From NCBI GenBank assembly GCA_007376385.1, contig VMGC01000002.1:136372-200371 (forward strand): a stretch of 64,000 bases of DNA, read 5' to 3'. Position numbers and translations under genes: made by a program. Of this stretch, positions 1 through 63,482 are shown piece by piece; position 1 is the first letter of the stretch, and each line of letters begins with the position of its first letter. The notes below the pieces were generated by a model. That model made no database searches. It saw only the letters and a list, made by a program, of their open reading frames with translations, and had not been told where the DNA came from. The DNA is from Parcubacteria group bacterium Gr01-1014_8. Lineage in GTDB: Bacteria; Patescibacteriota; Minisyncoccia; Phycocordibacterales; UBA2100.

Positions 1-1087
1 ATTATTTTACCTGGCTGTTGCGCCGGAGTTTTACGAAACAATATTTAAAAACCTATCTGATTCGAAGTTGTCGGAGCCATGTGATGAAGATGGCGGCTGG
101 ACACGCCTTATCATTGAGAAGCCCTTCGGTGTTGATCTGAAGACGGCTAAAAGCATTGAGCGGCTCCTTACCAAGCTTTTTCTGCCGGAACAGATATATC
201 GTATTGACCATTATCTGGCCAAAGAAATGTTACAGAATATTCTTACGTTCCGCTTCTCGAATAATTTATTCGAGAAACACTGGGGACGGGACTCAATAGA
301 ACGCATTTACATAAAATCGCTTGAGGAGATAGGCGTTGAAAAGCGCGGTGCATTCTATGATCCGGTGGGCGCATTTCGCGACGTGGGCCAAAATCACTTT
401 TTGGCGATGATGGCTCTGGTCACCATGGAACATCCGATAAGTTTCGATGCAAAGGCGATCCAAAGGAAACGAGCGGATGTGCTAAAGAAATTGAAAATTA
501 TCAAAAAAAACGAAATACCGAAAGCCACATTTCGTGCGCAGCACGAGGGCTACAGAACCATCGCTGGTGTTGCGAAAAATTCCGCGACGGAAACATACTT
601 CAAAATAAAAGCGGAAGTTGCAACGAAGCGATGGAAGGGAGTACCGATAATTCTTGAAGGCGGCAAGCGATTGGGGGCGCCAGAGAAGGAAGTCATCATT
701 ACCTTCAAGCATCCAAAACAGTGTCTTTGCCCGAAAGACGGACCACATCACAAGAATGAGATAATCATCCGTTTTGAACCCAGGGAAGAGATTCTCATCG
801 AATTCTGGTCCAAAAAACCCGGCTTCACGATGGATACTGCGCCGCGCATGCTCCACTATATTCTAAGGGAACCAAAAGCGCATATTCCGTACATCGAGGA
901 ATACGCGAAGCTCCTTTTGGATTGCATTCGTGGGGATCAGATGCTGTTCGTCTCCACGTCCGAGATACAGGCGATGTGGCGCTTCACCGATCCCATCCTT
1001 GACGCATGGAAGAAGGGTTTGGTACCGTTGCATTCGTACAAACCGGATACAAAAGAAATACTACAAACATCTAACTATATACAATAG
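1..1087 (+). CDS. zwf: Glucose-6-phosphate 1-dehydrogenase, 5'-truncated at window edge (frame continues from position 2: LFYLAVAPEFYETIFK...)
   Basis: RIDHYLGKE-type motif (RIDHYLAKEMLQNIL), EKPFG motif, typical G6PD C-terminal half; gnd immediately downstream. Confidence 0.85.
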   Translation, partial: LFYLAVAPEFYETIFKNLSDSKLSEPCDEDGGWTRLIIEKPFGVDLKTAKSIERLLTKLFLPEQIYRIDHYLAKEMLQNILTFRFSNNLFEKHWGRDSIERIYIKSLEEIGVEKRGAFYDPVGAFRDVGQNHFLAMMALVTMEHPISFDAKAIQRKRADVLKKLKIIKKNEIPKATFRAQHEGYRTIAGVAKNSATETYFKIKAEVATKRWKGVPIILEGGKRLGAPEKEVIITFKHPKQCLCPKDGPHHKNEIIIRFEPREEILIEFWSKKPGFTMDTAPRMLHYILREPKAHIPYIEEYAKLLLDCIRGDQMLFVSTSEIQAMWRFTDPILDAWKKGLVPLHSYKPDTKEILQTSNYIQ

Positions 1088-7152: not shown

Positions 7153-7929
7153 ATGAGGTATTCCGAGTCGGTGCTTCCGGTGATGAGGGCGATCAGAGAC
7201 ATGCTTCTCCCAGAGTGGGGCGTCGCGAAAGCCGTCCATCAAAAAACAGCGTCCTCATGGAGCGTCGTTACGGCGCTCGATATCGAAATAGAAAAATTTG
7301 TGAGCGCCGAATTGGCGCATCTCCACCCTGATATTGAATTTGTCGGAGAAGAGCAAGGGGGGAATAGAAGTGCGAAGAAATTCTGGTTGATGGACCCGAT
7401 AGACGGAACGGCTCACTTTATCCGCGGCCTGCCGTTCTGCACGTCGATGCTTGCATTGGTCGACAGAGGGCATGTCGTTTTTTCTGCCATATACGATTTT
7501 ATACACGACGAAATGTATTTTGCTGATAAGGGGAAAGGAGCGTTCTGCAACGAAAAGAAGCTTTCAGTGAGTTCGCGAACGTTAAAAGATTCTTTCGTCT
7601 CGTTCGAGACGGATATTGCAATCGAGAAGAATGCTAATTTGCGACAAAAAATGCTCTCGCAAACGAACGTAATGACGACATTTTGTGCAGGCTGGGAATT
7701 TGCAATGGTCGCATCAGGAAAAATTGATGCGCGAATATGTCTCGACCCGTTTGGCCAAGATTATGATTTCGCTCCTGGTACGCTATTGGTAATGGAAGCA
7801 GGAGGCGTCGTCACGAACCTTGATTCGCACGAATTTGACTATACGAATTTGGATCTCATCGCAGCAAATCCGCTTGTGTATAAAGACCTTACGGAGGGAG
7901 AATCAGCATTATTCCCTCTCGGGCGCTAG
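7153..7929 (+). CDS. Inositol-monophosphatase-family phosphatase (SuhB/CysQ-like)
   Basis: WLMDPIDGT motif, EEQGG motif; ATG 2 nt after the otsA stop (the track ORF starts earlier at a TTG at 7135). Confidence 0.75.
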   Translation: MRYSESVLPVMRAIRDMLLPEWGVAKAVHQKTASSWSVVTALDIEIEKFVSAELAHLHPDIEFVGEEQGGNRSAKKFWLMDPIDGTAHFIRGLPFCTSMLALVDRGHVVFSAIYDFIHDEMYFADKGKGAFCNEKKLSVSSRTLKDSFVSFETDIAIEKNANLRQKMLSQTNVMTTFCAGWEFAMVASGKIDARICLDPFGQDYDFAPGTLLVMEAGGVVTNLDSHEFDYTNLDLIAANPLVYKDLTEGESALFPLGR

Positions 7930-18554: not shown

Positions 18555-18977
18555 ATGTCGAGCCAAGAAAAATCGCTTCGCGTTCAAAATATAGAGATCA
18601 GAAAAGAGTGGCTAGAAGATCCAAAAAATCTTGCTACCCTACTGCAACGATGGCACAAAAAAGCGCTATCGGATGGCAATGAGGAGATGAAACGAGAACT
18701 TGAGCAAATACTCACAGTTATAAATGACATGAAAAATCCCAGTTCGCACAACTACCCCATGTTTAGGCGATGGGAAGGCTGGGTGGGCGGGAAGCTTGGC
18801 ATAGATGCTGATCCTGCAAGTCCGGCTGCTTTCATCGCAGCGGTGAAAGCGGCTGATGGCCGCCAACCCAACGCTTGGTCGTATATACCTGGTTTTGTTA
18901 CTTCCACTCGAACTCTTTTGCAATCTATTTTCGAGCAAGAAGGCCTTCTCAACGCAAAGATTGATCTTAGAAAGTGA
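18555..18977 (+). CDS. Hypothetical protein
   Basis: 140-aa ORF with no recognisable motif. Confidence 0.45.
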   Translation: MSSQEKSLRVQNIEIRKEWLEDPKNLATLLQRWHKKALSDGNEEMKRELEQILTVINDMKNPSSHNYPMFRRWEGWVGGKLGIDADPASPAAFIAAVKAADGRQPNAWSYIPGFVTSTRTLLQSIFEQEGLLNAKIDLRK

Positions 18978-23008: not shown

Positions 23009-23045
23009 CCCCAGTACCACAAGCCCTTCGGGCTTGGCTACGGGG
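23009..23045 (+). ncRNA. Conserved 37-nt leader hairpin motif (CCCCAGUACCACAAGCCCUUCGGGCUUGGCUACGGGG) in the pyrB 5' region; a paralogous copy lies in the uvrA leader
   Basis: 7-bp stem CAAGCCC/GGGCUUG with a UUCG tetraloop; compensatory C:G to U:A change in the copy at 53093. Confidence 0.5.
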
Positions 23046-23104
23046 CGAGGTTCATTGCATGAATATACTTGCGCGGGCGTGCAGTCCGTGGAGAAAATAA
23101 TGTT

Positions 23105-26788: not shown

Positions 26789-27820
26789 CTACCGCGCTCG
26801 CGGGATGCCTCCAGTGTCAACAGACTGCCCGTCAGTGGATAGAGCAGGCTCTGATACCGATGGTTCGCTCGCCGGCGTTCCGCCGGTTCCTTCTGCGCTG
26901 GTCGTCGTTGCTTCGACTATCGAAGGAGTACCCACGGTAGAATTTGTGGATCGGTTTGCTTTTGGTGCAGCCTTTGAGGGCGCACTTGGCACTAGAGGCT
27001 CATTTATTTCAGGTAATTGCTCTGTCTCCTCCATCACACGGGATGGATCCATGGGCTCTTCCTCTGGGAGAGCAGTCTGGATGCCGAGCATCAGACCAGC
27101 ACCGACGAGACCGGCAAGAATGTGCATATATGTGCCTCCGTTGCTCCGAACTGACGCGAGCGCGTGGGGCAAGAGGTCATGCAAGACAACAGACATAAAT
27201 CCTCCGGCGGCTATACCAGAAAATAGTGCGACGATCCAAGTCACTGATGACAGTGTGCTTGCAAGGAAAAAGCCGATGAGAATGGTGGAGGAAACGAGAA
27301 AACTCCGGGTCAGGGCTCCTTTATTGGAATATCCAGCCCCGCGTAGCACAAAGTACTCTGAGACCTCCTGCACCGTCTCATGGAGAACGACGCCGAGCGT
27401 TGCTGCAAGGCCGATGTACCAATTCGTCTCAAAAGCACCCACAAGCAGAATACCGTCCCCAATGTTATGCAGAGCGTCGCTAAAGAGCACGCTACGACCC
27501 TCTATGGGAGTGTGAGTGTGACTATTGTCAACGTCGTGGTGGTGGTGCTTTGTTGGAAAAATATAGTGAATTCCTTCCATAAGCGTTGCACCGATAAGTA
27601 CCGATATGACAGCGACCACCCAGCCGCCTGCGCGTACGGCCTCCGATGCAAGGTCAAATGCGACAAGAACAAACACGCCAGCAGAAAAGGTTGCCAAATA
27701 GGTCAGATATCGTTGCATCCACTGTCCCAGTTTTCCTGCGGAAAAGATGACCCCAATAAGAGATATCAGCATGACAAGAAGCGATGCGAGAAAAGCAGCG
27801 CTCGCAGCTGAAAAGTCCAT
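26789..27820 (-). CDS. ZIP-family divalent metal transporter with an approximately 90-aa Ser/Thr/Pro/Ala-rich C-terminal tail
   Basis: ZIP helices with the HNIGDG...GVVLHE pattern and a His-rich loop (HHHHDVDNSHTH); TACACT lies 10 nt upstream of the ATG. Confidence 0.8.
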   Translation of the reverse strand: MDFSAASAAFLASLLVMLISLIGVIFSAGKLGQWMQRYLTYLATFSAGVFVLVAFDLASEAVRAGGWVVAVISVLIGATLMEGIHYIFPTKHHHHDVDNSHTHTPIEGRSVLFSDALHNIGDGILLVGAFETNWYIGLAATLGVVLHETVQEVSEYFVLRGAGYSNKGALTRSFLVSSTILIGFFLASTLSSVTWIVALFSGIAAGGFMSVVLHDLLPHALASVRSNGGTYMHILAGLVGAGLMLGIQTALPEEEPMDPSRVMEETEQLPEINEPLVPSAPSKAAPKANRSTNSTVGTPSIVEATTTSAEGTGGTPASEPSVSEPALSTDGQSVDTGGIPRAR

Positions 27821-27832
27821 AATGGGTGTGAG

Positions 27833-27939
27833 TGTACCCCATGAGATAAGGACCCGCTATAGGCTATTCACAGGAAGCTACTTTTTGAAAGAAGAATTAC
27901 TCTAGCGAACGCCACCCGGTCTATCTCACGGGGTGTACC
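27833..27939. promoter_or_regulatory. Inverted pair of the TATCTCAYGGGGT(A/G)TAC motif (RC copy at 27833-27847, direct copy at 27923-27939) plus the direct repeat GGCTATTCACAG(G)AAG (27871-27889 and 27961-27977); the left copy doubles as the -10 region of the ZIP gene
   Basis: Read directly; the same motif pair is found at 52979-53085 and 60663-60768. Confidence 0.5.
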
Positions 27940-28090
27940 CCAGAGAGTAAAGACTCGCTACCGGCTATTCACAGAAGATATGCTGACAACAAAGTATGCA
28001 CATCATGCGGACCGTTTGCCTCTATCTACTATTGACACAGGGCCGGGTATGTATCCGAGTATTTTCCTTAAAACTTGACGGAACAAGTGA

Positions 28091-28128
28091 AATGTCCGAT
28101 AGGAATGTCCATGAGGATGTCTGATGGG
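28091..28128. repeat. Three tandem 13-bp units (AATGTCCGATAGG / AATGTCCATGAGG / ATGTCTGATGGG) in a GACAG/TTGACAG-rich 520-bp intergenic region
   Basis: Read directly. Confidence 0.6.
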
Positions 28129-28346
28129 ACAGGTTGATGATCAGAGCTGCCTTAGTAAGGGACAGACCGACAGAATGGACTGGATATAGGACGTCATGTA
28201 TGCCGGAATTGACAGTCAGTAAAATTGTGTTGTTTCGGACATTTTATCGTCAACTTTCGTTGACAGGGATTGTACCGCGCGTACTGTTACGGACAGCGCT
28301 CTTTTAATTTACGCTATTACTAAAGATTAATTATAAATACGAGCAT

Positions 28347-29606
28347 ATGACGTTGTTACGTTTGGCACGTGTGGGAGGTGTTGCGGCTTTTGCTGTTCTC
28401 TTGTTCACACTCGTTTCGTTTGTGGGAAACCAGCGTCTTGCTTACGCAGATGAGGTGCCCGTTTCGGGCTCTGACATTGTGTGCGACACGTATCGTCAAC
28501 TGCAGGAACAGGGATTGCCGATCCCTCCAGGACTCGATGTGAGCGGTTGTGAAGGAGGTGGGGGAGGCGGCGGTGGTGGCGAACCGCCACTACCAACGGT
28601 TACAGAGTGCATAGACGGTATTGATAACGACGGAGATGGACGTACCGATTTTCTTCCGATATACGGCGACCCCGATTGTGATAACTTCTCTGATGATAGC
28701 GAGGCGGCGAGCGGAGGAGGCGGCGGTGGCGGTTCTACTCCAGCATGTGCCGATGGCATTGATAACGACGGCGATGGGCTCGTAGATAGTGTTGACCCGG
28801 GCTGCTCAGACACTTCCGATACTGACGAGGCCGATCCTACGGGGGGCGGCGTAGGAGGTGGTGGAGGTGGCGGAGGCGGAGGCCCCGCAGCGGCGTGCGA
28901 GGACAGCATAGACAATGACCTCGATGGTCTTAAAGACATGCAAGACCCAGGGTGTGAAAATGCTTCTGACAACGACGAAACCAACGGTTCTGGTGGAGGA
29001 GGAGGCGGCGGGGGAGGTGGCGAGGCAGCGACGACAACGGCACCAACTCCAGAAATTCTCGGCGCATCAACGCCAGCACAGGAACTTTCGTGCGACTCCT
29101 ACCTGACGGCATTCATTCGCTTCGGCGGAAAGAATGATGCAGACCAGGTTATGCGCCTCCAGAAAGTACTCAAAGATTACGAGAAGGCGGATGTGAATGA
29201 AAATGGTACCTACGATGCTGCAACTCTCAAGGCAGTACATGCATTCCAAACAAAGTATGCCGATGAAATTCTTACACCATGGGGTATCAAGAGCTCGACA
29301 GGCTATGTGTATCTCACGACGCGAAAGAAAGTGAATGAAATTCGGTGCGAGAATAAGAAGACATTTCCGCTTTCGGAAGAAGAACAGAAGAAAGTCGAGG
29401 AAACACGGGTTTCTGCGGCAGTCAGGGACATCGGCACAGACGCATCTCCCGCAAAACCAGCGGAGCCAGCAAAACCTGCAGTAGTAAAAGCTAAAGATGT
29501 AACGGACAGGACCGCCGATTCATCGTCAAAAGACGAGACAGTGCAGGTGAGCGGATTGAAGAGGGTGTGGGATTTCCTCGGCAGAATGTTCAACAGAGCG
29601 CGCTAA
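28347..29606 (+). CDS. Secreted protein with four C-x-DGIDNDGDG-x-D...DPGC Ca/metal-binding repeats (MopE-like) separated by poly-Gly linkers, plus a C-terminal peptidoglycan-binding (PG_binding_1-like) domain
   Basis: Signal/TM N-terminus; repeats TECIDGIDNDGDGRTD, ACADGIDNDGDGLVD, ACEDSIDNDLDGLKD; G8-12 runs; C-terminus LQKVLKDY...TLKAVHAFQTKYADEILTPWGIKSSTGYVY. Confidence 0.7.
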   Translation: MTLLRLARVGGVAAFAVLLFTLVSFVGNQRLAYADEVPVSGSDIVCDTYRQLQEQGLPIPPGLDVSGCEGGGGGGGGGEPPLPTVTECIDGIDNDGDGRTDFLPIYGDPDCDNFSDDSEAASGGGGGGGSTPACADGIDNDGDGLVDSVDPGCSDTSDTDEADPTGGGVGGGGGGGGGGPAAACEDSIDNDLDGLKDMQDPGCENASDNDETNGSGGGGGGGGGGEAATTTAPTPEILGASTPAQELSCDSYLTAFIRFGGKNDADQVMRLQKVLKDYEKADVNENGTYDAATLKAVHAFQTKYADEILTPWGIKSSTGYVYLTTRKKVNEIRCENKKTFPLSEEEQKKVEETRVSAAVRDIGTDASPAKPAEPAKPAVVKAKDVTDRTADSSSKDETVQVSGLKRVWDFLGRMFNRAR

Positions 29607-37524: not shown

Positions 37525-37695
37525 ACCACTCCTTCGGGGTTGGGTGAAAGTCCCAATCGGCGGTATAGCCCGCGAGTTCTTAGGGACACGATTTGGTGAG
37601 ATTCCAAAGCCGACCGTACAGTCGGGATGAAAGAAGGAAGCGAGGCACCCTTGTTGGATGCTTGCGTGGTAACCCCGATGGATCGGGGTTTTTTA
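37525..37695 (+). ncRNA. FMN riboswitch (RFN element) with a terminator expression platform (AACCCCGATGGATCGGGGTTTTTT at 37671-37694)
   Basis: GGGTGAAAGTCCCAATCGGCGGTATAGCCCGCGAG...GATTTGGTGAGATTCCAAAGCCGAC...AGTCGGGATGAAAGAAGG matches conserved FMN aptamer blocks; upstream of the rib operon. Confidence 0.85.
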
Positions 37696-37700
37696 TTTAT

Positions 37701-38288
37701 ATGTTTACAGGAATTATCACACATACCGGGACTATCTCTCGTACATCTCCATCAAAGATTGCGATTCGTGCAGATCGCGATTTTGTGCAAAAGTTGGGTT
37801 ACGGCACCAGCGTTAGTGTGGGCGGAGTATGTCTCACCGTTATCTCAAAAAATAGCGATTCGTTTTCGGCGGACATTATGCCGGAAACCGCACGGCGTAC
37901 TACCTTGGGAAGTCTTCATCGCGGTGACTTGGTAAATTTAGAGCATCCGGCAACCCCCTTGTCGTTCCTTTCGGGTCACATAGTGCAAGGTCATATCGAT
38001 GGTATAGGGACATTACGGCAGATCCGTGCGCACAAGATGGGTTGGATCGTGTCGATCGCCTCTCCGGCAGCTCTCCTGCGCTACATCGTCGCGAAGGGAT
38101 CGATAGCGGTAAATGGCATTTCACTTACGGTCATCGGAAGGGGCCGCTCATACTTCACGGTAGGTATAATCCCTCACACATGGAAAACCACGACGTTCCA
38201 TGAACTCGCGCAGGGGAGCAGTGTCAACATTGAAGTGGATGTCCTCGCAAAGTATGTCGAGACATTTGTTCGGGATCGCCGCATATGA
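37701..38288 (+). CDS. ribE: Riboflavin synthase (alpha subunit)
   Basis: MFTGIITHTG N-terminus and internal duplication typical of riboflavin synthase; the track ORF starts upstream, inside the riboswitch. Confidence 0.85.
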   Translation: MFTGIITHTGTISRTSPSKIAIRADRDFVQKLGYGTSVSVGGVCLTVISKNSDSFSADIMPETARRTTLGSLHRGDLVNLEHPATPLSFLSGHIVQGHIDGIGTLRQIRAHKMGWIVSIASPAALLRYIVAKGSIAVNGISLTVIGRGRSYFTVGIIPHTWKTTTFHELAQGSSVNIEVDVLAKYVETFVRDRRI

Positions 38289-46492: not shown

Positions 46493-47029
46493 ATGAAAAC
46501 GGCTGTGTTTGGCGGCGGATGCTTTTGGTGCACTGAAGCGGTATTTCAAATGCTGAAGGGGGTAAACAAAGTCGAATCAGGCTATGCGGGTGGGTCAGTC
46601 GCGAACCCCTCGTACGAACGGGTTTCAATGGGGAATACGGGCCATGCCGAGGTCATACGAGTAACCTATGACCCGGCTGTCATCACGTACGAGGACCTTC
46701 TGACGGTTTTTTTCGGTTCGCATGACCCGACAACGCCGAATCGGCAGGGGAATGACGTTGGTGAGCAGTATCGTTCAGTGATTTTGTACCAAACGGACGA
46801 CGAGAAAAATGTCGCAGAACGAGTTGCAAAAGAAATACAGGAGTCCTTGAAAGATAGTACGCGAGTCATTACGCAAATCAGTCCGCTGAAAGAATTTTAT
46901 CCTGCGGAGGAATATCACAAGAATTACTACAAACAAAATTCCTCCGCGCCGTATTGCATGCTCATCATCGAGCCGAAAGTCGAGAAAGTCCGGAAGCGAT
47001 TTGCGCAGCTAGTTAACCCAGGCGCATAA
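46493..47029 (+). CDS. msrA: Peptide-methionine (S)-S-oxide reductase
   Basis: GGGCFWCTEAVF active site. Confidence 0.9.
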   Translation: MKTAVFGGGCFWCTEAVFQMLKGVNKVESGYAGGSVANPSYERVSMGNTGHAEVIRVTYDPAVITYEDLLTVFFGSHDPTTPNRQGNDVGEQYRSVILYQTDDEKNVAERVAKEIQESLKDSTRVITQISPLKEFYPAEEYHKNYYKQNSSAPYCMLIIEPKVEKVRKRFAQLVNPGA

Positions 47030-52392: not shown

Positions 52393-52584
52393 CTACTCCC
52401 GGTCAAAGACCCACACGTACAGTACAAACCAGCCGATGATGGTCCATGCGATGGCAAGATTGGTAAATATGACGCCGCCAGCGTTCGGATGGCGCCGTAT
52501 CAAAGCCAGTATTCCGGGGAAAAAATACACGTATGTAGCCATAGCCACGTAGAGATAAACCATGAAATGCAAAAAAAGCAACAT
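52393..52584 (-). CDS. Superinfection-immunity-like small membrane protein (Imm family), paralog 1
   Basis: FFPGILALIRRHPNAGGVIFTNLAIAWTIIGWFVLYVWVF pattern. Confidence 0.6.
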   Translation of the reverse strand: MLLFLHFMVYLYVAMATYVYFFPGILALIRRHPNAGGVIFTNLAIAWTIIGWFVLYVWVFDRE

Positions 52585-52709: not shown

Positions 52710-52931
52710 CTAATTAGTACTTTGTCTGTCAAATACCCACGCGAACAAGACAAACCATCCAATGATGGTCCAGCCGATGGCGATGTTCGTAAAGAAAATA
52801 CCGCCGGGACTAGAATGGCGCAGAATGACAGCCAATATTGTGGGGAAGAAATACACGAACAACCCTCCCGCAACGTATGCGTATATCATGAGCAATTGTA
52901 ACCACAAAGTCGAAGGTATCAAATAGACCAC
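52710..52931 (-). CDS. Superinfection-immunity-like small membrane protein (Imm family), paralog 2 (GTG start)
   Basis: FFPTILAVILRHSSPGGIFFTNIAIGWTIIGWFVLFAWVF; approximately 60% identical to paralog 1. Confidence 0.6.
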   Translation of the reverse strand: MVYLIPSTLWLQLLMIYAYVAGGLFVYFFPTILAVILRHSSPGGIFFTNIAIGWTIIGWFVLFAWVFDRQSTN

Positions 52932-52978
52932 TGTGAATTAGGGCGAATGGTTGGCTCTTTCGGCAGATACGAGAAATG

Positions 52979-53085
52979 GTATACCCCGTGAGATAAAAAG
53001 GTCTCAAAATTATGCGGCAAGCGCACATGTACTCAAAATTCCTTTTTTTGCCTATAGTCACGGGCTATCTCATGGGGTATACTCG
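52979..53085. promoter_or_regulatory. Inverted pair of the TATCTCAYGGGGTATAC motif (RC copy at 52979-52995, direct copy at 53066-53085, which includes the TATACT -10) between the divergent Imm genes and uvrA
   Basis: Read directly; same architecture as at 27833-27939 and 60663-60768. Confidence 0.55.
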
Positions 53086-53092
53086 TCCGTGT

Positions 53093-53129
53093 CCCCGGTA
53101 CCACAAGTCCTTCGGACTTGACTACGGGG
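53093..53129 (+). ncRNA. Second copy of the 37-nt leader hairpin motif (CCCCGGUACCACAAGUCCUUCGGACUUGACUACGGGG) in the uvrA 5' UTR, followed by a second hairpin (CCCCTCG...CGAGGGG)
   Basis: Paralogous to 23009-23045 with a compensatory C:G to U:A change in the stem. Confidence 0.5.
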
Positions 53130-53173
53130 CAGGTAACCCCTCGGACAAGACGAGGGGCGAGGCTATTTGCATC

Positions 53174-60433: not shown

Positions 60434-60662
60434 AGCTCGAAAGAGAGAAGGCGATCAGAAAAAAGCCCTCTTGGGGAGGGCAGAAAATCAGTCATTTTCA
60501 GGGGGATAGGACCCGCCTTCGCCAAAGGCTTCGACGAGGCGAAGTAAAAAAATACGCCCGAGCGGGCGCTTTCCGAATTCCGGACCTTAGGAGCCATTAA
60601 AAGTGCATTGTATCTGAATTTTTACGGCAGTCAAATCAGCTCGCGGTGGATATCCAGTTTCT

Positions 60663-60768
60663 GTATACCACATGAGATAAATAATTCGCGCCGTAAATCT
60701 GTCAAAATTCATCGCAAAATCGCGTGCATTTCGAAATTGTAATGTCTTTATCTCACGGGGTATACTCG
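60663..60768. promoter_or_regulatory. Inverted pair of the TATCTCAYG(G/T)GGTATAC motif between divergent carA and uvrC (RC copy at 60663-60679; direct copy at 60749-60768 with TATACT 7 nt before the uvrC ATG)
   Basis: Read directly. Confidence 0.55.
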
Positions 60769-60773
60769 CCTTC

Positions 60774-62018
60774 ATGACGAAAGAAGAGCTAAAAAAAATA
60801 AACTTGCCGGATAGTCCCGGGGTATACATGTTTCGGAGGAGCAACAATCATATCCTGTATATAGGAAAGGCGGCGTCACTTCGTGACAGAGTGCGCAGTT
60901 ATTTTGCTTCGGACCTAGCAGAGTCCCGTTCGTCGGCAATCGCTGGAATGGTATCTGATGCGGTGACGGTAACGTGGGAATCGGTGGACACAGTTCTTGA
61001 GGCGCTTATTTTGGAGGCTAACCTCATAAAGAAATATGAGCCTCAATTCAACATAGAACAGAAAGATAATAAAAGCTTCAACTATCTCGTTATTACGAAA
61101 GAGGCGTTCCCGCGGGTCGCTGTTGTTCGCGGACGGGAATTATTTCTTACATGGAACGAAAAAGACATAAAGCACTGTTTCGGACCGTACCCGCACGGAG
61201 GTGCGCTACAGGAAGCCGTAAAGTTGGTACGAAGAATATTTCCCTTCAGAGACAACAAGTGTGTCCCAGCTCCTGTCCAGAAAAAGAAAGGGAAGCCGCC
61301 TAAGCCGTGTTTTAATCGCCAAATAGGTCTCTGTCCTGGAGTATGTACAGGCGAAATGAGTGAAGCAGAGTACAAGTATGTCATCCGAAACATTGTTGAA
61401 CTTTTCTCCGGCGGGATGCGCTCTTTAAAGAGGCGGCTTGAAAAAGAGATGAAGGATGCGTCACGAGCAGAACGTTTTGAAAAAGCGACTGCACTTCACC
61501 GGCAAGTCTCAGCGCTTACTCATATTAGAGACGTTTCGCTTATAAAAGATGAGCACAGGGTCTCGACAGGAGGCCAGTTCCGCATCGAAGCCTATGACGT
61601 CGCACATACCTCAGGTGACGAGACGGTCGGGGTCATGACCGTCGTTGAAGGAGGAGAAATTTACAAAGCAGCGTATCGCATGTTCAAAGTGCGGGAGGCA
61701 AAAAATGACGATACTAAGGCGCTGTCGGAAATCTTAATGAGAAGGCTCGCCCATCCGGAGTGGCAGTATCCGAAACTCATCGTTATCGATGGGGGAAAGG
61801 GACAGCTGAATGCCGCATCTCGAGTTCTCAAAAAAGCAGGTGTATCGATTCCGCTCGTGGCCGTCACGAAAGACGAATTTCATCGTCCCGAAAAAGTGAT
61901 AGGCGACGAGCGCATGGCGCGTGCGTACGAAAAAGAAATTTTGCTGGCGAACAGCGAAGCGCATCGTTTTGCGATACGTTGGCACAGAAAACGTAGACAA
62001 AAGGGCATGGTAGAGTAA
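60774..62018 (+). CDS. uvrC: Excinuclease ABC subunit C, short form (GIY-YIG + UVR + RNase-H-like endonuclease domains; no C-terminal HhH2)
   Basis: GIY-YIG (GVYMF...ILYIGKA), UVR domain (RFEKATALHRQVSAL), endonuclease block IDGGKGQLNAA; only 414 aa. Confidence 0.85.
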   Translation: MTKEELKKINLPDSPGVYMFRRSNNHILYIGKAASLRDRVRSYFASDLAESRSSAIAGMVSDAVTVTWESVDTVLEALILEANLIKKYEPQFNIEQKDNKSFNYLVITKEAFPRVAVVRGRELFLTWNEKDIKHCFGPYPHGGALQEAVKLVRRIFPFRDNKCVPAPVQKKKGKPPKPCFNRQIGLCPGVCTGEMSEAEYKYVIRNIVELFSGGMRSLKRRLEKEMKDASRAERFEKATALHRQVSALTHIRDVSLIKDEHRVSTGGQFRIEAYDVAHTSGDETVGVMTVVEGGEIYKAAYRMFKVREAKNDDTKALSEILMRRLAHPEWQYPKLIVIDGGKGQLNAASRVLKKAGVSIPLVAVTKDEFHRPEKVIGDERMARAYEKEILLANSEAHRFAIRWHRKRRQKGMVE

Positions 62019-62022
62019 TTGC

Positions 62023-62487
62023 ATGTCGGAGAACGGCGGAAACCCGAAGAAACCAATCGATCTCAGCGCAGAACGACTCAAGAAATTAAGGCCTAAGAAC
62101 TTATTACTGCGAACGGATGTCTTAGTAGATGCACTTGGACTGCCTCCTGAAACATTTGCTCCACCTCAAGGCCTCAAGGAGCTTTCTTTATCCGAGGCGC
62201 ATGAATTTGCCAGCGAAATCGTCAAAAAGTATTCAGATAGAAGCACGTTCATGCAAGCATACACAGAGGAACTTTATCCCGATGACCCAAAGGCAGAACA
62301 GCGAGCGGCTGAAAGTGTAGAAGGGGATTTAAATGAAAAAAGGGAGATTGTTGGCGTATTCACCACAGAAGGAATGCGACAAACTCTTTCATATAGTAAA
62401 GCTGATTCGCGTTATTATCCAATTGCGTTCACTTTTGTTACAGCAGAAGCATTTTTGAATCGTTTTCCCAATAAACCACAGGAGTAG
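62023..62487 (+). CDS. Hypothetical protein
   Basis: ORF 5 nt after uvrC. Confidence 0.45.
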   Translation: MSENGGNPKKPIDLSAERLKKLRPKNLLLRTDVLVDALGLPPETFAPPQGLKELSLSEAHEFASEIVKKYSDRSTFMQAYTEELYPDDPKAEQRAAESVEGDLNEKREIVGVFTTEGMRQTLSYSKADSRYYPIAFTFVTAEAFLNRFPNKPQE

Positions 62488-62513: not shown

Positions 62514-63482
62514 ATGGCACGCACTGTAGTGGGTGTACTTCGGGGTGGAACTTCAAGTGAGTATGACTTGTCGCTTAGAACAGGGGCGGCAATGCTGAAT
62601 GCGCTCTCTGAAGATGAGTACGATGTTAGAGATATTCTCATTGACAAGCGGGGAGTGTGGCATTCGCGAGGCCGTCCCGCGGACCCGGCACGCGTGCTCT
62701 CCCAGGTTGATGTCGTATTAAATGGACTTCACGGAGGTATCGGGGAGGATGGAACTGTCGGAAGACTTTTAGAGCGTGCAGGTACGCCGTATGCTGGCTC
62801 AAAGCCCCTTGCCTCAGCATTCTCTTTGAGCAAGGTACGCTCAAGAGAAATATTGAAAAATGCCGGAATACTTATGCCGCGTGGGCTCGCATTCTCCGCG
62901 TCGATGCCGCTCAATACTGGCGAAATGACGGAGCTTGTTTTTGCAGAGTTTGGGCCGCCATACATTCTTAAACCCGCCGCGGAAGGTGCATCAACTGGAA
63001 TAAAATTGGTGTATACGATCATAGAACTACCCGAAGCCATTGGCGATATTCTCGACGCGTATGGCTCCACAATTGTCGAAGAATATTTAGCGGGGGAAAA
63101 CGCGACTGTCGGGGTCTTGGAAGATTTTAGAGGAGAAGAGTTGTACGCGCTGCCGCCGGCACATATTATTCTTCCGGATGAGTCGCCGTTTTTACACTTT
63201 GACCATCACACAAACGGTTCGCTGCGCCATATAGCGCCAAGTAATTTCAGCGACCTTGAAAAAAAGGCCCTTGTGGAGGCAGCAAAAGCCGCACATCGAG
63301 CATTGGGGCTCTCGCATTTTTCTCGAGCTGATTTCATTGTTACGAAGCGCGGCCCGCATTTGTTGGAAGTAAATGCGCTGCCCGGTCTCTATGAAGGCTC
63401 GGCAATGCCGTCGAAGTTGCAGGCAGTCGGGTCCTCCGTAAAACAATTTCTGGAACACGCGCTTCATTTAGCGAGAAAATAA
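62514..63482 (+). CDS. ddl: D-alanine--D-alanine ligase
   Basis: ATP-grasp; N-terminal VGVLRGGTSSEYDLSLRTGAAM; C-terminal blocks typical of Ddl. Confidence 0.85.
   Translation: MARTVVGVLRGGTSSEYDLSLRTGAAMLNALSEDEYDVRDILIDKRGVWHSRGRPADPARVLSQVDVVLNGLHGGIGEDGTVGRLLERAGTPYAGSKPLASAFSLSKVRSREILKNAGILMPRGLAFSASMPLNTGEMTELVFAEFGPPYILKPAAEGASTGIKLVYTIIELPEAIGDILDAYGSTIVEEYLAGENATVGVLEDFRGEELYALPPAHIILPDESPFLHFDHHTNGSLRHIAPSNFSDLEKKALVEAAKAAHRALGLSHFSRADFIVTKRGPHLLEVNALPGLYEGSAMPSKLQAVGSSVKQFLEHALHLARK

What the first reader, a model, noticed from the sequence alone, without database searches (positions are those of the whole stretch)
52979..53085. Recurrent 15-18 nt motif TATCTCAYGGGGTATACT in inverted pairs at divergent promoters (uvrA / Imm locus)
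An almost identical motif occurs six times in the window, always as an inverted pair 60-90 bp apart. The loci are 52979/53066 (Imm genes and uvrA), 60663/60749 (carA and uvrC) and 27833/27923 (ZIP transporter and the surface-protein gene region). The direct copy overlaps a TATACT/TACACT -10 box located 7-10 nt (uvrC, ZIP) or approximately 90 nt (uvrA) before the start codon. Identity over more than 12 nt upstream of the -10 is far more than a sigma-70 promoter needs. It suggests a lineage-specific operator or sigma/anti-sigma element. Two of three loci are nucleotide-excision-repair genes, so a DNA-damage (SOS-like) regulon with a non-canonical box is one hypothesis; a general 'strong leaderless promoter' cassette is another.
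Basis: seen in the sequence. Interest (0 to 1): 0.65.

Follow-up and report, generated by a model that had tools for sequence, protein, structure and literature searches.

The report
Paired promoter box of CPR bacteria
An 18-base sequence sitting exactly where leaderless genes start being transcribed recurs almost letter-perfect in Kaiserbacteria-like ultra-small (CPR) bacteria, nearly always with a disabled mirror copy about 9, 35 or 72 bases upstream; I found no description of this promoter architecture, and the protein that reads it is unknown.

Summary
TATCTCAYGGGGTATACT occurs six times in the window (0 expected) as three inverted pairs.

In 117 loci from about 55 Patescibacteria genomes, the motif is sharply bounded and strictly intergenic. 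It lies at -24..-7 of leaderless genes: copies ending TATAnT have a start codon 5-9 nt downstream in 78 of 115 cases, and a weak TTGAA -35 sits at the canonical distance.

The pairs are not two divergent promoters. Of 106 pairs, 86 contain exactly one TATAnT copy. The other copy keeps the 12-nt box and TATA but lacks T-7, and usually abuts the stop codon of a co-directional upstream gene. In the window, carA has its own canonical promoter and the Imm gene probably does too.

The spacer falls into three discrete, genome-specific classes (about 9, 35 and 72 nt) with unrelated interior sequence.

Downstream genes are diverse (115 Pfam families in 142 genes), and the 23 metagenome uvrC relatives whose upstream region was read lack the box, so an SOS regulon is not supported.

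Best reading: a lineage-specific promoter class made of a sigma70-type -10 fused to a protein-recognised box, with an upstream auxiliary copy. The binder and the cause of the spacing classes are unknown. No paper found holds the motif.

The parts
27831..27848 (-). Unit A, promoter-competent copy (TATCTCATGGGG + TACACT). It precedes the ZIP transporter gene, whose ATG at 27820 lies 10 nt downstream.
   Evidence: The hexamer ends in T; that class precedes start codons in 78/115 cases.
27849..27921 (.). Unit A spacer, 73 nt (class '72'), with no similarity to other spacers.
27922..27939 (+). Unit A partner copy (box intact, hexamer TGTACC, no T-7). No gene starts within about 400 nt.
27940..27976 (+). 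Degenerate palindromic extension (CCAGAGAGTAA) plus a direct repeat of the first part of the spacer (cgctaNNggctattcacagRaag). This is a remnant of a tandemly doubled cassette, like those in L046 and L092.
   Evidence: Sequence; comparison.
52978..52995 (-). Unit B partner copy (box intact, hexamer TATACC). The Imm_superinfect gene beyond it probably has its own TACAAT (52900-52895) -N5- ATG (52889).
52996..53065 (.). Unit B spacer, 70 nt. A weak -35-like TAGTCA lies at 53055-53060, 17 nt from the -10.
   Evidence: class-wide -35 signal.
53066..53083 (+). Unit B promoter-competent copy (box + TATACT), inferred promoter of uvrA with a predicted TSS near 53090.
53084..53173 (+). uvrA 5' leader of about 84-90 nt with two hairpins. 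The first (53093-53132) is a conserved RNA element that is also found before pyrB.
60662..60679 (-). Unit C partner copy (box with one mismatch, hexamer TATACA).
60607..60634 (-). carA's own canonical promoter, TTGACT (60634-60629) -N16- TACAAT (60612-60607), lying between the partner copy and the carA leader. It shows that the partner is not the carA promoter.
   Evidence: Sequences. The same arrangement occurs in L009 (TTGACA-N17-TAGAGT) and L119.
60680..60748 (.). Unit C spacer, 69 nt, with a -35-like TTGTAA at 60737-60742.
60749..60766 (+). Unit C promoter-competent copy (box + TATACT). The uvrC ATG at 60774 lies 7 nt downstream, so the mRNA is leaderless or nearly so.

Best explanation
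The 18-mer is a composite core-promoter element of one CPR lineage (Kaiserbacteria and relatives within Paceibacteria).

Its last six bases (TATAnT) act as the -10 hexamer of an ordinary sigma70-type RNA polymerase. Transcription starts 7 nt further on, usually at the A of the ATG, giving a leaderless mRNA.

The preceding 12 bases (TATCTCAYGGGG, positions -24 to -13) fill the spacer between a weak -35 and the -10. I infer that they are read by a lineage-specific protein, either a transcription factor bound in the spacer or an extra DNA-reading surface of the holoenzyme.

The second, inverted copy is not a promoter. It is an upstream auxiliary copy of the same protein site. It has kept the box and TATA but lost T-7, so it does not fire antisense into the upstream gene. 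It sits at one of three permitted distances (about 9, 35 or 72 nt) that differ between genomes. I infer that protein bound at the two sites acts together, through cooperative binding, bridging or insulation of the promoter from read-through.

Shown: position, orientation, asymmetry, spacing classes, lineage range and lack of a functional regulon. Inferred: that a protein binds the box, the sign of regulation, and the purpose of the partner.
For: - Discrete, sharply bounded motif: mismatch histogram 0:99, 1:65, 2:50, 3:14, 4:23, 5:56; no conservation immediately outside the 18 nt.
- Promoter geometry: the distance from motif end to start codon peaks at 6 nt (42 cases), 7 (20) and 8 (17); 88 of 96 starts are ATG.
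- The same 6-7 nt geometry is seen at ordinary TGnTATAMT promoters in the window.
- T-7 dependence: 78/115 TATAnT copies have a start codon 5-9 nt downstream, against 5/64 TATAnC copies and 1/49 non-TATA copies.
- Canonical -35: T-35 0.59, G-33 0.56, A-32/-31 about 0.5 in oriented class-35 units; TTGnnn at 16-18 nt in 15 unpaired sites.
- Pair asymmetry: 86/106 pairs have exactly one T-type copy, 5 have two, 15 have none. Independence would give about 52, 22 and 32 (my arithmetic).
- In 55/79 asymmetric pairs the partner faces a co-directional upstream gene, mostly 0-25 nt from its stop codon.
- Partners whose hexamer has decayed still keep CCCCRTGAGATA at the canonical gaps.
- Coupling between the two copies: position 7 is almost never T in both (1 case against about 10 expected, p=3e-5).
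- Location: no genuine copy inside genes although ORFs cover 88% of the sequence.
- Range: about 55 genomes labelled Kaiser-, Nomura-, Campbellbacteria, Paceibacterota or Parcubacteria.
- Spacing classes are tight and genome-specific.
- An rpoD homologue is itself driven by the motif in L073.
Against: - No transcript 5' ends are available; the start site is inferred from start-codon distances only.
- No binding protein was identified.
- About 30 bits of near-invariant sequence in more than 200 copies is more than transcription-factor sites usually keep. It is hard to create by point mutation, so some copying process is implied.
- Whole cassettes are occasionally duplicated.
- The three gaps (box centre-to-centre 21, 47, 84 bp) do not follow simple helical phasing.
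- The set of genes carrying the motif is poorly conserved between genomes. My rough estimate is about twice random overlap. uvrC and pyrB carry it in some genomes and not in others.
- This gene turnover fits a portable promoter module better than a classical regulon.
Confidence: 0.55

Rival explanations
1. Mobile or self-copying promoter cassette (MITE/Correia-like). The pair is the terminal inverted repeat of a small non-autonomous element of three length classes. A lineage-conserved transposase or recombinase recognises these ends, and the element brings an outward-firing -10 to whatever gene it lands next to.
For: - Inverted 16-18-nt ends, discrete total lengths and near-perfect repeat identity.
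- Presence/absence and class change at orthologous sites: uvrC has gap 69 in the window, gap 11 in L009 and no motif in L118/L119; pyrB carries the motif in L065 but not in the window.
- MAG CAYPGH01 has the same 73-nt interior at three contigs, each tandemly doubled.
- L045 and L117 cassettes are about 69% alike with unrelated flanks.
- The repeat begins TA-TA, compatible with a TA target duplication (my inference).
- The gene set carrying the motif turns over between genomes.
Against: - Interiors are otherwise unrelated, even within one genome: similarity equals the shuffled null, and same-genome versus different-genome p=0.18.
- Placement is exact to the nucleotide relative to start codons.
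- Exactly one end is promoter-competent, which random insertion would not give.
- There are no copies inside genes and none upstream of the 36 tRNAs in the set.
- No transposase is linked to the motif.
- The motif is identical across many species-level genomes, unlike typical MITE families (general knowledge).
Confidence: 0.17
2. Promoter of a dedicated RNA polymerase specificity factor. The whole 18-mer, with or without TTGAA at -35, is recognised by an alternative sigma factor (the GGGTAT inside it resembles sigB/sigF-type -10 elements) or by another polymerase. No separate transcription factor is involved.
For: - Fixed register of box and -10 in every copy, and high information content.
- The motif forms a discrete class beside ordinary TGnTATAMT promoters in the same genome.
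- GGGTAT is the sigB/sigF-type -10 (from memory, not tested).
Against: - It does not explain why promoter-dead partner copies are kept at fixed distances.
- The -10 hexamer TATACT and the 6-nt distance to +1 are the same as at ordinary promoters.
- The -35 signal looks like the housekeeping TTGACA type.
- The driven genes are housekeeping and include rpoD.
- In the 0.9 Mb held, only one rpoD homologue and one protein with an isolated sigma region-4 domain were seen, which says little either way.
Confidence: 0.12
3. RNA-level element. Read-through transcripts from the upstream gene fold the two copies into an 18-bp stem that terminates, processes (RNase III) or insulates transcripts just before the next gene.
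For: - The partner usually lies 0-25 nt after the stop codon of a co-directional gene, with no room for another terminator.
- The two copies would form a long perfect stem.
- Some class-9 interiors (gcggctttgcc) extend the complementarity.
Against: - There is no compensatory covariation. At the one variable position the complementary T/T combination is depleted, and the A.C-mismatch combination is the commonest (33/86). First-base changes (GAGATG or CATCTCA) are not compensated.
- No U-tract follows the stem.
- A structure needs complementarity, not an invariant sequence across about 55 genomes.
- 15 promoter copies work without a partner.
- The T-7 rule has no RNA explanation.
Confidence: 0.07
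4. SOS-like DNA-damage operator. A LexA-type repressor binds the box upstream of repair genes.
For: - Two of the three window units precede uvrA and uvrC.
- recA, a second uvrC, and two members each matching the PHP (DnaE-type) and RuvB_N families (the RuvB_N matches may be clamp-loader AAA proteins) appear among 142 motif-driven genes.
Against: - 115 Pfam families occur among the 142 genes; repair and replication make up about 6%, which I estimate to be roughly the genomic share.
- The 23 metagenome uvrC relatives whose upstream region was read, including two at 62-64% identity with conserved synteny, have plain -10 promoters without the box, and none of the 25 uvrC-relative loci holds a box anywhere.
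- The motif is asymmetric, not a LexA-type palindrome.
- At 3 units per 64 kb, a genome of about 1 Mb would hold some 45-50 units, an extrapolation that would be large for an SOS regulon.
Confidence: 0.03
5. Site-specific recombination site, inverton, or DNA-uptake sequence. The 28-bp palindrome TATCTCAYGGG-GTATAC-CCCRTGAGATA has the 11+6+11 layout of a dif-type tyrosine-recombinase core. Alternatively the repeat is kept by biased DNA uptake.
For: - Eight loci carry the full 28-bp palindrome, and tandem cassettes are joined through it.
- CPR bacteria rely on DNA uptake (general knowledge).
Against: - Ordinary copies have only one arm.
- Inverting the spacer would not change the promoter, which lies in the repeat itself.
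- The copies are strictly intergenic, oriented to genes and placed at a fixed distance from ATG. Uptake sequences are not (general knowledge).
- No recombinase is linked to the motif.
Confidence: 0.03

Closest known systems
Leaderless, -10-driven sigma70-type promoters (Actinobacteria, Deinococcus; extended -10 promoters) - from general knowledge
   Same: There is a TAnnnT hexamer 6-7 nt before an ATG that is also +1, and the -35 is weak or dispensable. Ordinary promoters in this same window are of this type (TGCTATACT-N6-ATG).
   Different: Here 12 further bases (-24..-13) are near-invariant in a discrete subset of promoters. They replace the TGn motif, and an inverted promoter-dead copy accompanies them upstream.
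Factor boxes that lie between -35 and -10: the mycobacterial PafBC 'RecA-NDp' -26 element (sigma adaptation), the phage T4 MotA box (sigma appropriation) and MerR-type spacer operators - from memory, not tested
   Same: A conserved box at a fixed register immediately upstream of a normal -10, with a poor or absent -35. For PafBC the regulon also includes repair genes.
   Different: There is no sequence similarity. The box abuts the -10 directly. The driven genes are general housekeeping genes. The box comes with a second inverted copy at discrete distances. No factor is known.
Neisseria Correia elements / MITEs with promoter-bearing terminal repeats; REPINs - from general knowledge
   Same: Short intergenic units bounded by inverted repeats, with discrete length classes and outward-firing -10 elements at an end. 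There are presence/absence differences between relatives and occasional tandem or dispersed copies.
   Different: Interiors are unrelated between copies. Placement relative to start codons is exact. Only one end is promoter-competent. The repeat is identical across many species-level genomes.
Auxiliary operators acting with a promoter-proximal operator (lac O1/O3, gal OE/OI) and spaced inverted-repeat operators such as CIRCE - from general knowledge
   Same: A promoter-overlapping site plus a second copy upstream. The statistical coupling between the two copies suggests that they are read together.
   Different: Spacing falls into three classes (about 9, 35, 72 nt) that are not multiples of a helical turn. 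The classes are genome-specific. The unit occurs 3 times in this 64-kb window, which extrapolates to dozens per genome rather than a few operons.

Membership tests
sigma70-type leaderless promoter | -10 hexamer TAnnnT with conserved A-11 and T-7 | tested here: met
   TATA is present in 210/260 copies. A start codon follows at 5-9 nt in 78/115 TATAnT copies but only 5/64 TATAnC copies.
sigma70-type leaderless promoter | Start codon (= +1) 6-8 nt after the hexamer, and ATG strongly preferred | tested here: met
   Peak at 6 nt (42 cases), 7 (20) and 8 (17); ATG in 88/96.
sigma70-type leaderless promoter | -35 hexamer TTGACA-like, 17+/-1 bp upstream | tested here: met
   A weak TtGAAt signal at -35..-30 in classes 35 and 72 and in single sites. 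It is absent in class 9, where the partner occupies that position.
sigma70-type leaderless promoter | Mapped primary 5' end | not testable with these tools
   No transcriptome data are held.
LexA/SOS operator | Palindromic or direct-repeat operator shared by recA, lexA and uvr genes and conserved in relatives | tested here: not met
   The motif is asymmetric. The 142 downstream genes fall into 115 Pfam families. The 23 metagenome uvrC relatives whose upstream region was read lack the motif, and no box occurs anywhere in the 25 uvrC-relative loci.
LexA/SOS operator | LexA homologue encoded in the genome and autoregulated | not tested
   Only 64 kb of the source genome is held.
MITE / Correia-like element | Terminal inverted repeats bounding a short unit of defined length | tested here: met
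   106 inverted pairs, in three length classes.
MITE / Correia-like element | Copies share the interior sequence (amplified family) | tested here: not met
   Interior similarity equals the shuffled null, and the same-genome comparison gives p=0.18. Exceptions: MAG CAYPGH01 and the pair L045/L117.
MITE / Correia-like element | Target-site duplication and empty sites in relatives | tested here: inconclusive
   Orthologous uvrC and pyrB sites exist with and without the unit, but the flanks are too diverged to define insertion borders. A TA duplication is possible but unproven.
Intrinsic terminator / structured RNA | Compensatory changes keeping the stem; U-tract after the stem | tested here: not met
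   The complementary T/T combination at position 7 is depleted and the mismatch combination is the commonest. There is no U-tract.
Invertible promoter (inverton) | Promoter inside the segment flanked by the inverted repeats; recombinase nearby | tested here: not met
   The -10 lies in the repeat itself, so inversion would not switch it. A neighbouring recombinase was not looked for.
DNA uptake sequence | Frequent in coding DNA as well, with no fixed relation to gene starts | tested here: not met
   There are no genuine copies inside genes although ORF coverage is 88%, and the distance to ATG is fixed.

The most novel reading that the evidence does not exclude
The pair is a previously unknown kind of transcription unit boundary in CPR bacteria. 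It is a portable 'promoter plus insulator' cassette read by an undiscovered lineage-specific protein. That protein's geometry sets a genome-specific spacer ruler (9, 35 or 72 nt). The near-perfect copies are spread or renewed by an active copying process, so even orthologous promoters are rebuilt to the local spacing class.
Probability: 0.3. Interest if true: 0.85.

Novelty: new variant of a known kind. Interest (0 to 1): 0.72.

Why it matters
- To my knowledge almost nothing is known experimentally about how the Candidate Phyla Radiation starts and regulates transcription.
- This motif gives a concrete, testable handle: a 12-nt bait for DNA-affinity capture of a lineage-specific regulator or polymerase surface.
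- It offers a ready-made portable promoter for emerging genetic work in Patescibacteria.
- It gives a rule for calling true start codons in these MAGs (ATG 6-8 nt after TATAnT).
- It can serve as a sequence marker to flag mis-binned contigs.
- The asymmetric pairing, the three genome-specific spacer classes and the re-setting of the class at orthologous promoters are not explained by textbook promoter or operator models. They would interest people who study promoter architecture and genome evolution in reduced genomes.

Tried and rejected
- Rfam (gathering score on the whole window; E<=10 around uvrA): nothing at the motif.
- tRNA scan: none of the 36 tRNAs in the held DNA lies just downstream of a motif.
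- Literature: no paper holds the sequence, and searches on CPR/Patescibacteria with leaderless, promoter or motif found nothing relevant. One NAR 2025 paper only lists TM7x TSS data.
- Viral contigs: four unpaired, chance-level matches.
- Hidden third boxes in long spacers: none.
- Own secondary structure of spacers: none, z about 0.
- Hairpin covariation between the two copies: absent.
- Spacer homology: at the null level.
- Functional enrichment of downstream genes: none.
- Phylogenetic footprinting at uvrC: the motif is not conserved.
- Reading the partner's outer flank as the remnant of a split TGnTATA promoter (an insertion model): suggestive (G at -14 in 73%, T at -15 in 43%) but not confirmed at the uvrC empty site.
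- Resemblances recalled from memory (IHF, DnaA box, sigma54, archaeal BRE/TATA, T7-type promoter): none fits the sequence or the geometry.

Full report
**1. The observation**

TATCTCAYGGGGTATACT matches six times in the window at <=2 mismatches, and none of 100 shuffles gave a match. The next-best matches have >=5 mismatches, so this is a discrete class. The copies form three (-,+) pairs:
- 27831-48 / 27922-39
- 52978-95 / 53066-83
- 60662-79 / 60749-66

The spacers are 73, 70 and 69 nt. Pfam confirms the neighbours: ZIP, a Gly-rich PG-binding protein, two Imm_superinfect genes, uvrA, carA and a short uvrC.

**2. Where else it occurs**

- Almost all are MAGs labelled Kaiserbacteria, Nomurabacteria, Campbellbacteria, Paceibacterota, Parcubacteria or Patescibacteria.
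- Some carry 'Saccharibacteria' labels from automated submissions, which I regard as doubtful.
- About five hits in unrelated bacteria are single and look like the chance matches expected for a 17-mer in 596 Gb.
- In the 838 kb fetched, the mismatch histogram is bimodal (0:99, 1:65, 2:50, 3:14, 4:23, 5:56, 6:367).
- The motif is sharply bounded, with no information immediately upstream or downstream.
- The window is about 49% G+C. It is syntenic at 66-72% DNA identity with Kaiserbacteria contigs, so the source is a Kaiserbacteria-like CPR bacterium.

**3. It sits on a promoter for leaderless genes**

- The distance from the motif end to the first long ORF's start codon peaks at 6 nt (42 cases), 7 (20) and 8 (17). 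In total 96/209 lie within 5-12 nt, and 88/96 of those starts are ATG.
- This is the geometry of a -10 hexamer at -12..-7 with +1 on the A of ATG.
- Ordinary promoters in the window show the same geometry: TGCTATACT-N6-ATG before ddl at 62514, TGCTATTAT-N6-ATG at 46493, and TAGAAT-N6-ATG at 18555. The FMN riboswitch also has TGCTATACT.
- So leaderless mRNAs and a TATACT -10 are general in this organism. What is special is the 12 bases in front, TATCTCAYGGGG at -24..-13.
- A weak -35 (T-35 0.59, G-33 0.56, A-32/-31 about 0.5) lies at the canonical 17-bp distance in oriented units and in unpaired sites.
- No genuine copy lies inside a gene although ORFs cover 88% of the DNA. The apparent exceptions are over-extended ORF calls or 1-mismatch chance hits.

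**4. The pairs are asymmetric**

- Using the 12-nt box alone (260 copies at <=1 mismatch), the following hexamer is TATACT 104, TATACC 43, TATACA 12, TATAGC 11 and TATAGT 10, with rarer variants.
- Copies ending in T have a start codon 5-9 nt downstream in 78/115 cases. Copies ending in C do so in 5/64, and non-TATA copies in 1/49.
- Of 106 divergent pairs, 86 have exactly one T-type copy, 5 have two and 15 have none. Independence would give about 52, 22 and 32 (my arithmetic).
- In 55 of 79 asymmetric pairs the gene beyond the partner is co-directional, and the partner lies mostly 0-25 nt after its stop codon.
- About 19 of 56 seemingly unpaired 18-mers have a decayed partner at the canonical distance that still keeps CCCCRTGAGATA. 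15 true singles exist.
- In the window each unit has one T-type copy: ZIP side, uvrA side and uvrC side.
- carA has its own TTGACT-N16-TACAAT promoter between the partner and its leader, as in L009 and L119.
- The Imm gene probably uses TACAAT-N5-ATG at 52900-52889 (sequence).
- Hence 'inverted pairs at divergent promoters' is only half right.

**5. Spacing**

- The gap between the two boxes falls into three classes: 6-17 nt (n=17), 33-39 nt (n=46, mode 35) and 61-80 nt (n=41, mode 72-73).
- Interiors are unrelated, unstructured and contain no hidden boxes.
- The class is genome-specific (chi-square p about 2e-6 with small cells):
  - JACPLD01: 6/7 class 9
  - Campbellbacteria BTUR01: 4/4 class 35
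  - the window, JAKFXG01 and CAZFMA01: 3/3 class 72 each
- The class differs at an orthologous site. The carA-uvrC intergenic region has gap 69 in the window and gap 11 in L009. Relatives at 62-64% UvrC identity with the same synteny have plain TATACT or TATAGT leaderless promoters and no box.
- pyrB is motif-driven and leaderless in L065, but in the window it has an ordinary promoter and a hairpin leader.
- Eight loci carry two copies overlapping by 8 nt, forming the 28-bp palindrome TATCTCAYGGGGTATACCCCRTGAGATA. In several loci this palindrome joins tandemly doubled cassettes, and the window's unit A carries a decayed version.

**6. What it is not**

*SOS regulon.*
- 209 downstream ORFs form 175 similarity clusters.
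- 142 confidently assigned genes hit 115 Pfam families, including RF1/2, clamp-loader subunits, DnaE, FtsA/PilM, MreB, RecA and ZIP. A T4SS coupling protein is also among them.
- An rpoD homologue is motif-driven too.

*RNA hairpin.*
- At the only variable position the complementary T/T combination is almost absent (1 of 86), and the mismatching combination is the commonest (33). The Fisher test on the partner-by-promoter table of C and T at this position gives p=3e-5.
- This speaks against a stem but for some coupling between the two copies.

*Others.*
- Phage element: only chance-level hits in viral contigs.
- Stable-RNA promoter: no tRNA lies just downstream of a motif.
- Known RNA family: none.

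**7. Mechanism**

*Shown.* The T-type copy has the position, orientation and sequence requirements of a sigma70-type promoter. The partner is a conserved non-promoter copy at discrete, genome-specific distances.

*Inferred.*
- The box, probably together with TATAC, is read by a lineage-specific protein.
- The partner is an auxiliary site for the same protein.
- T-7 is removed from partners to avoid antisense initiation.
- The rarity of two-T pairs even at divergent gene junctions suggests that only one side of a unit can be active.
- I cannot tell whether the factor activates (like PafBC or MotA boxes next to a -10) or represses (promoter-proximal plus auxiliary operator).
- The gaps correspond to box centre-to-centre distances of about 21, 47 and 84 bp (2.0, 4.5 and 8.0 helical turns). 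This is not simple phasing.

*Copying.* The near-perfect identity of more than 200 copies, the turnover of the genes that carry them, and occasional whole-cassette copies argue that some copying process contributes. The whole-cassette copies are CAYPGH01 at three contigs and L045/L117 with unrelated flanks. A MITE/Correia-like origin is therefore the main rival. Against it stand the unrelated interiors and the nucleotide-exact placement.

**8. Novelty**

Full-text searches found no paper holding the motif, and nothing on a CPR promoter motif of this kind. I classify it as a new variant of a known kind: a promoter with a factor box and an auxiliary site. The unexplained features are recorded in the notebook.

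**Limits**

- The loci were chosen by an exact 17-mer, so information content inside the motif is inflated. Spacing, asymmetry and distances are not affected by this choice.
- Gene calls are simple ORF heuristics.
- No expression data are available.
- Only 8-kb pieces of each genome were available.

Noticed in passing
window 53093-53132 (+) and 23009-23048 (+); L085 about 7727-7766 (-); L107 about 57-96 (-): A conserved roughly 40-nt hairpin, CCCCRGUACCAC-[variable stem-loop]-GRCUACGGGGCAGG, lies in the 5' leaders of uvrA and pyrB (aspartate carbamoyltransferase) in the window and of a transketolase N-terminal subunit gene in L085. Four base pairs show compensatory changes among the four copies. 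The two window leaders that were folded (uvrA, pyrB) give z = -3.4 and -3.9. There is no Rfam match. It is a candidate undescribed cis-regulatory RNA.
   Followed up: partly
window 60434-60606 (-); L009 3051-3180; L119 about 2340-2400: The carA leader carries two terminator-like hairpins with U-tracts (for example aaagcgcccgctcgggcgtattttttt) after its own promoter. The first is conserved in two relatives. It looks like a pyrimidine-type attenuator, yet Rfam's PyrR model did not hit.
   Followed up: partly
window, many gene starts (e.g. 4811-, 12138, 15033, 18555, 22891-, 46493, 62514): Leaderless starts are common in this genome. An ordinary -10, often the extended form TGCTATACT or TGCTATTAT, lies 6-7 nt before the ATG or GTG, and no Shine-Dalgarno sequence is visible.
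   Followed up: partly
window 37526-37642 (+): An FMN riboswitch (104 bits) lies before the gene at 37593-38288, transcribed from a TGCTATACT promoter.
   Followed up: no
window 60774-62018 and 62023-62487 (+): UvrC is only 414 aa (GIY-YIG, UVR and RNase H-like domains, with no C-terminal HhH region). It is followed 4 nt later by a 154-aa ORF with no Pfam match. The metagenome relatives align over nearly the whole 414-aa query.
   Followed up: no
window 27940-28346 (+): About 400 nt of apparently non-coding DNA lie between unit A's partner copy and the Gly-rich, PG-binding-domain protein gene (28347-29606). It begins with a decayed second cassette.
   Followed up: no
window 52393-52584 and 52710-52931 (-): Two tandem paralogues of the small membrane 'superinfection immunity' family (PF14373) sit on a cellular chromosome next to uvrA.
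   Followed up: no
L040 1127-2200 (+): A 357-aa protein combines an isolated sigma70 region-4 HTH at the N-terminus with a HARE-HTH domain. This is an unusual DNA-binding architecture in a motif-bearing MAG. No link to the motif could be shown.
   Followed up: partly
L093 (contig CAWCER010000013.1, labelled Bryobacterales); many 'uncultured Candidatus Saccharibacteria' TPA MAGs: A contig filed under Acidobacteria (Bryobacterales) carries three motif copies, including a class-9 pair identical in style to Kaiserbacteria. It is probably mis-binned or chimeric. Several 'Saccharibacteria' labels also look doubtful, since those contigs share genes at 68-72% DNA identity with the Kaiserbacteria-like window.
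   Followed up: no
L015, L046, L092 (MAG CAYPGH01): The same 73-nt cassette interior is present at three contigs upstream of different genes. Each time it is tandemly doubled and joined through the 28-bp palindrome, a local burst of cassette copying.
   Followed up: partly
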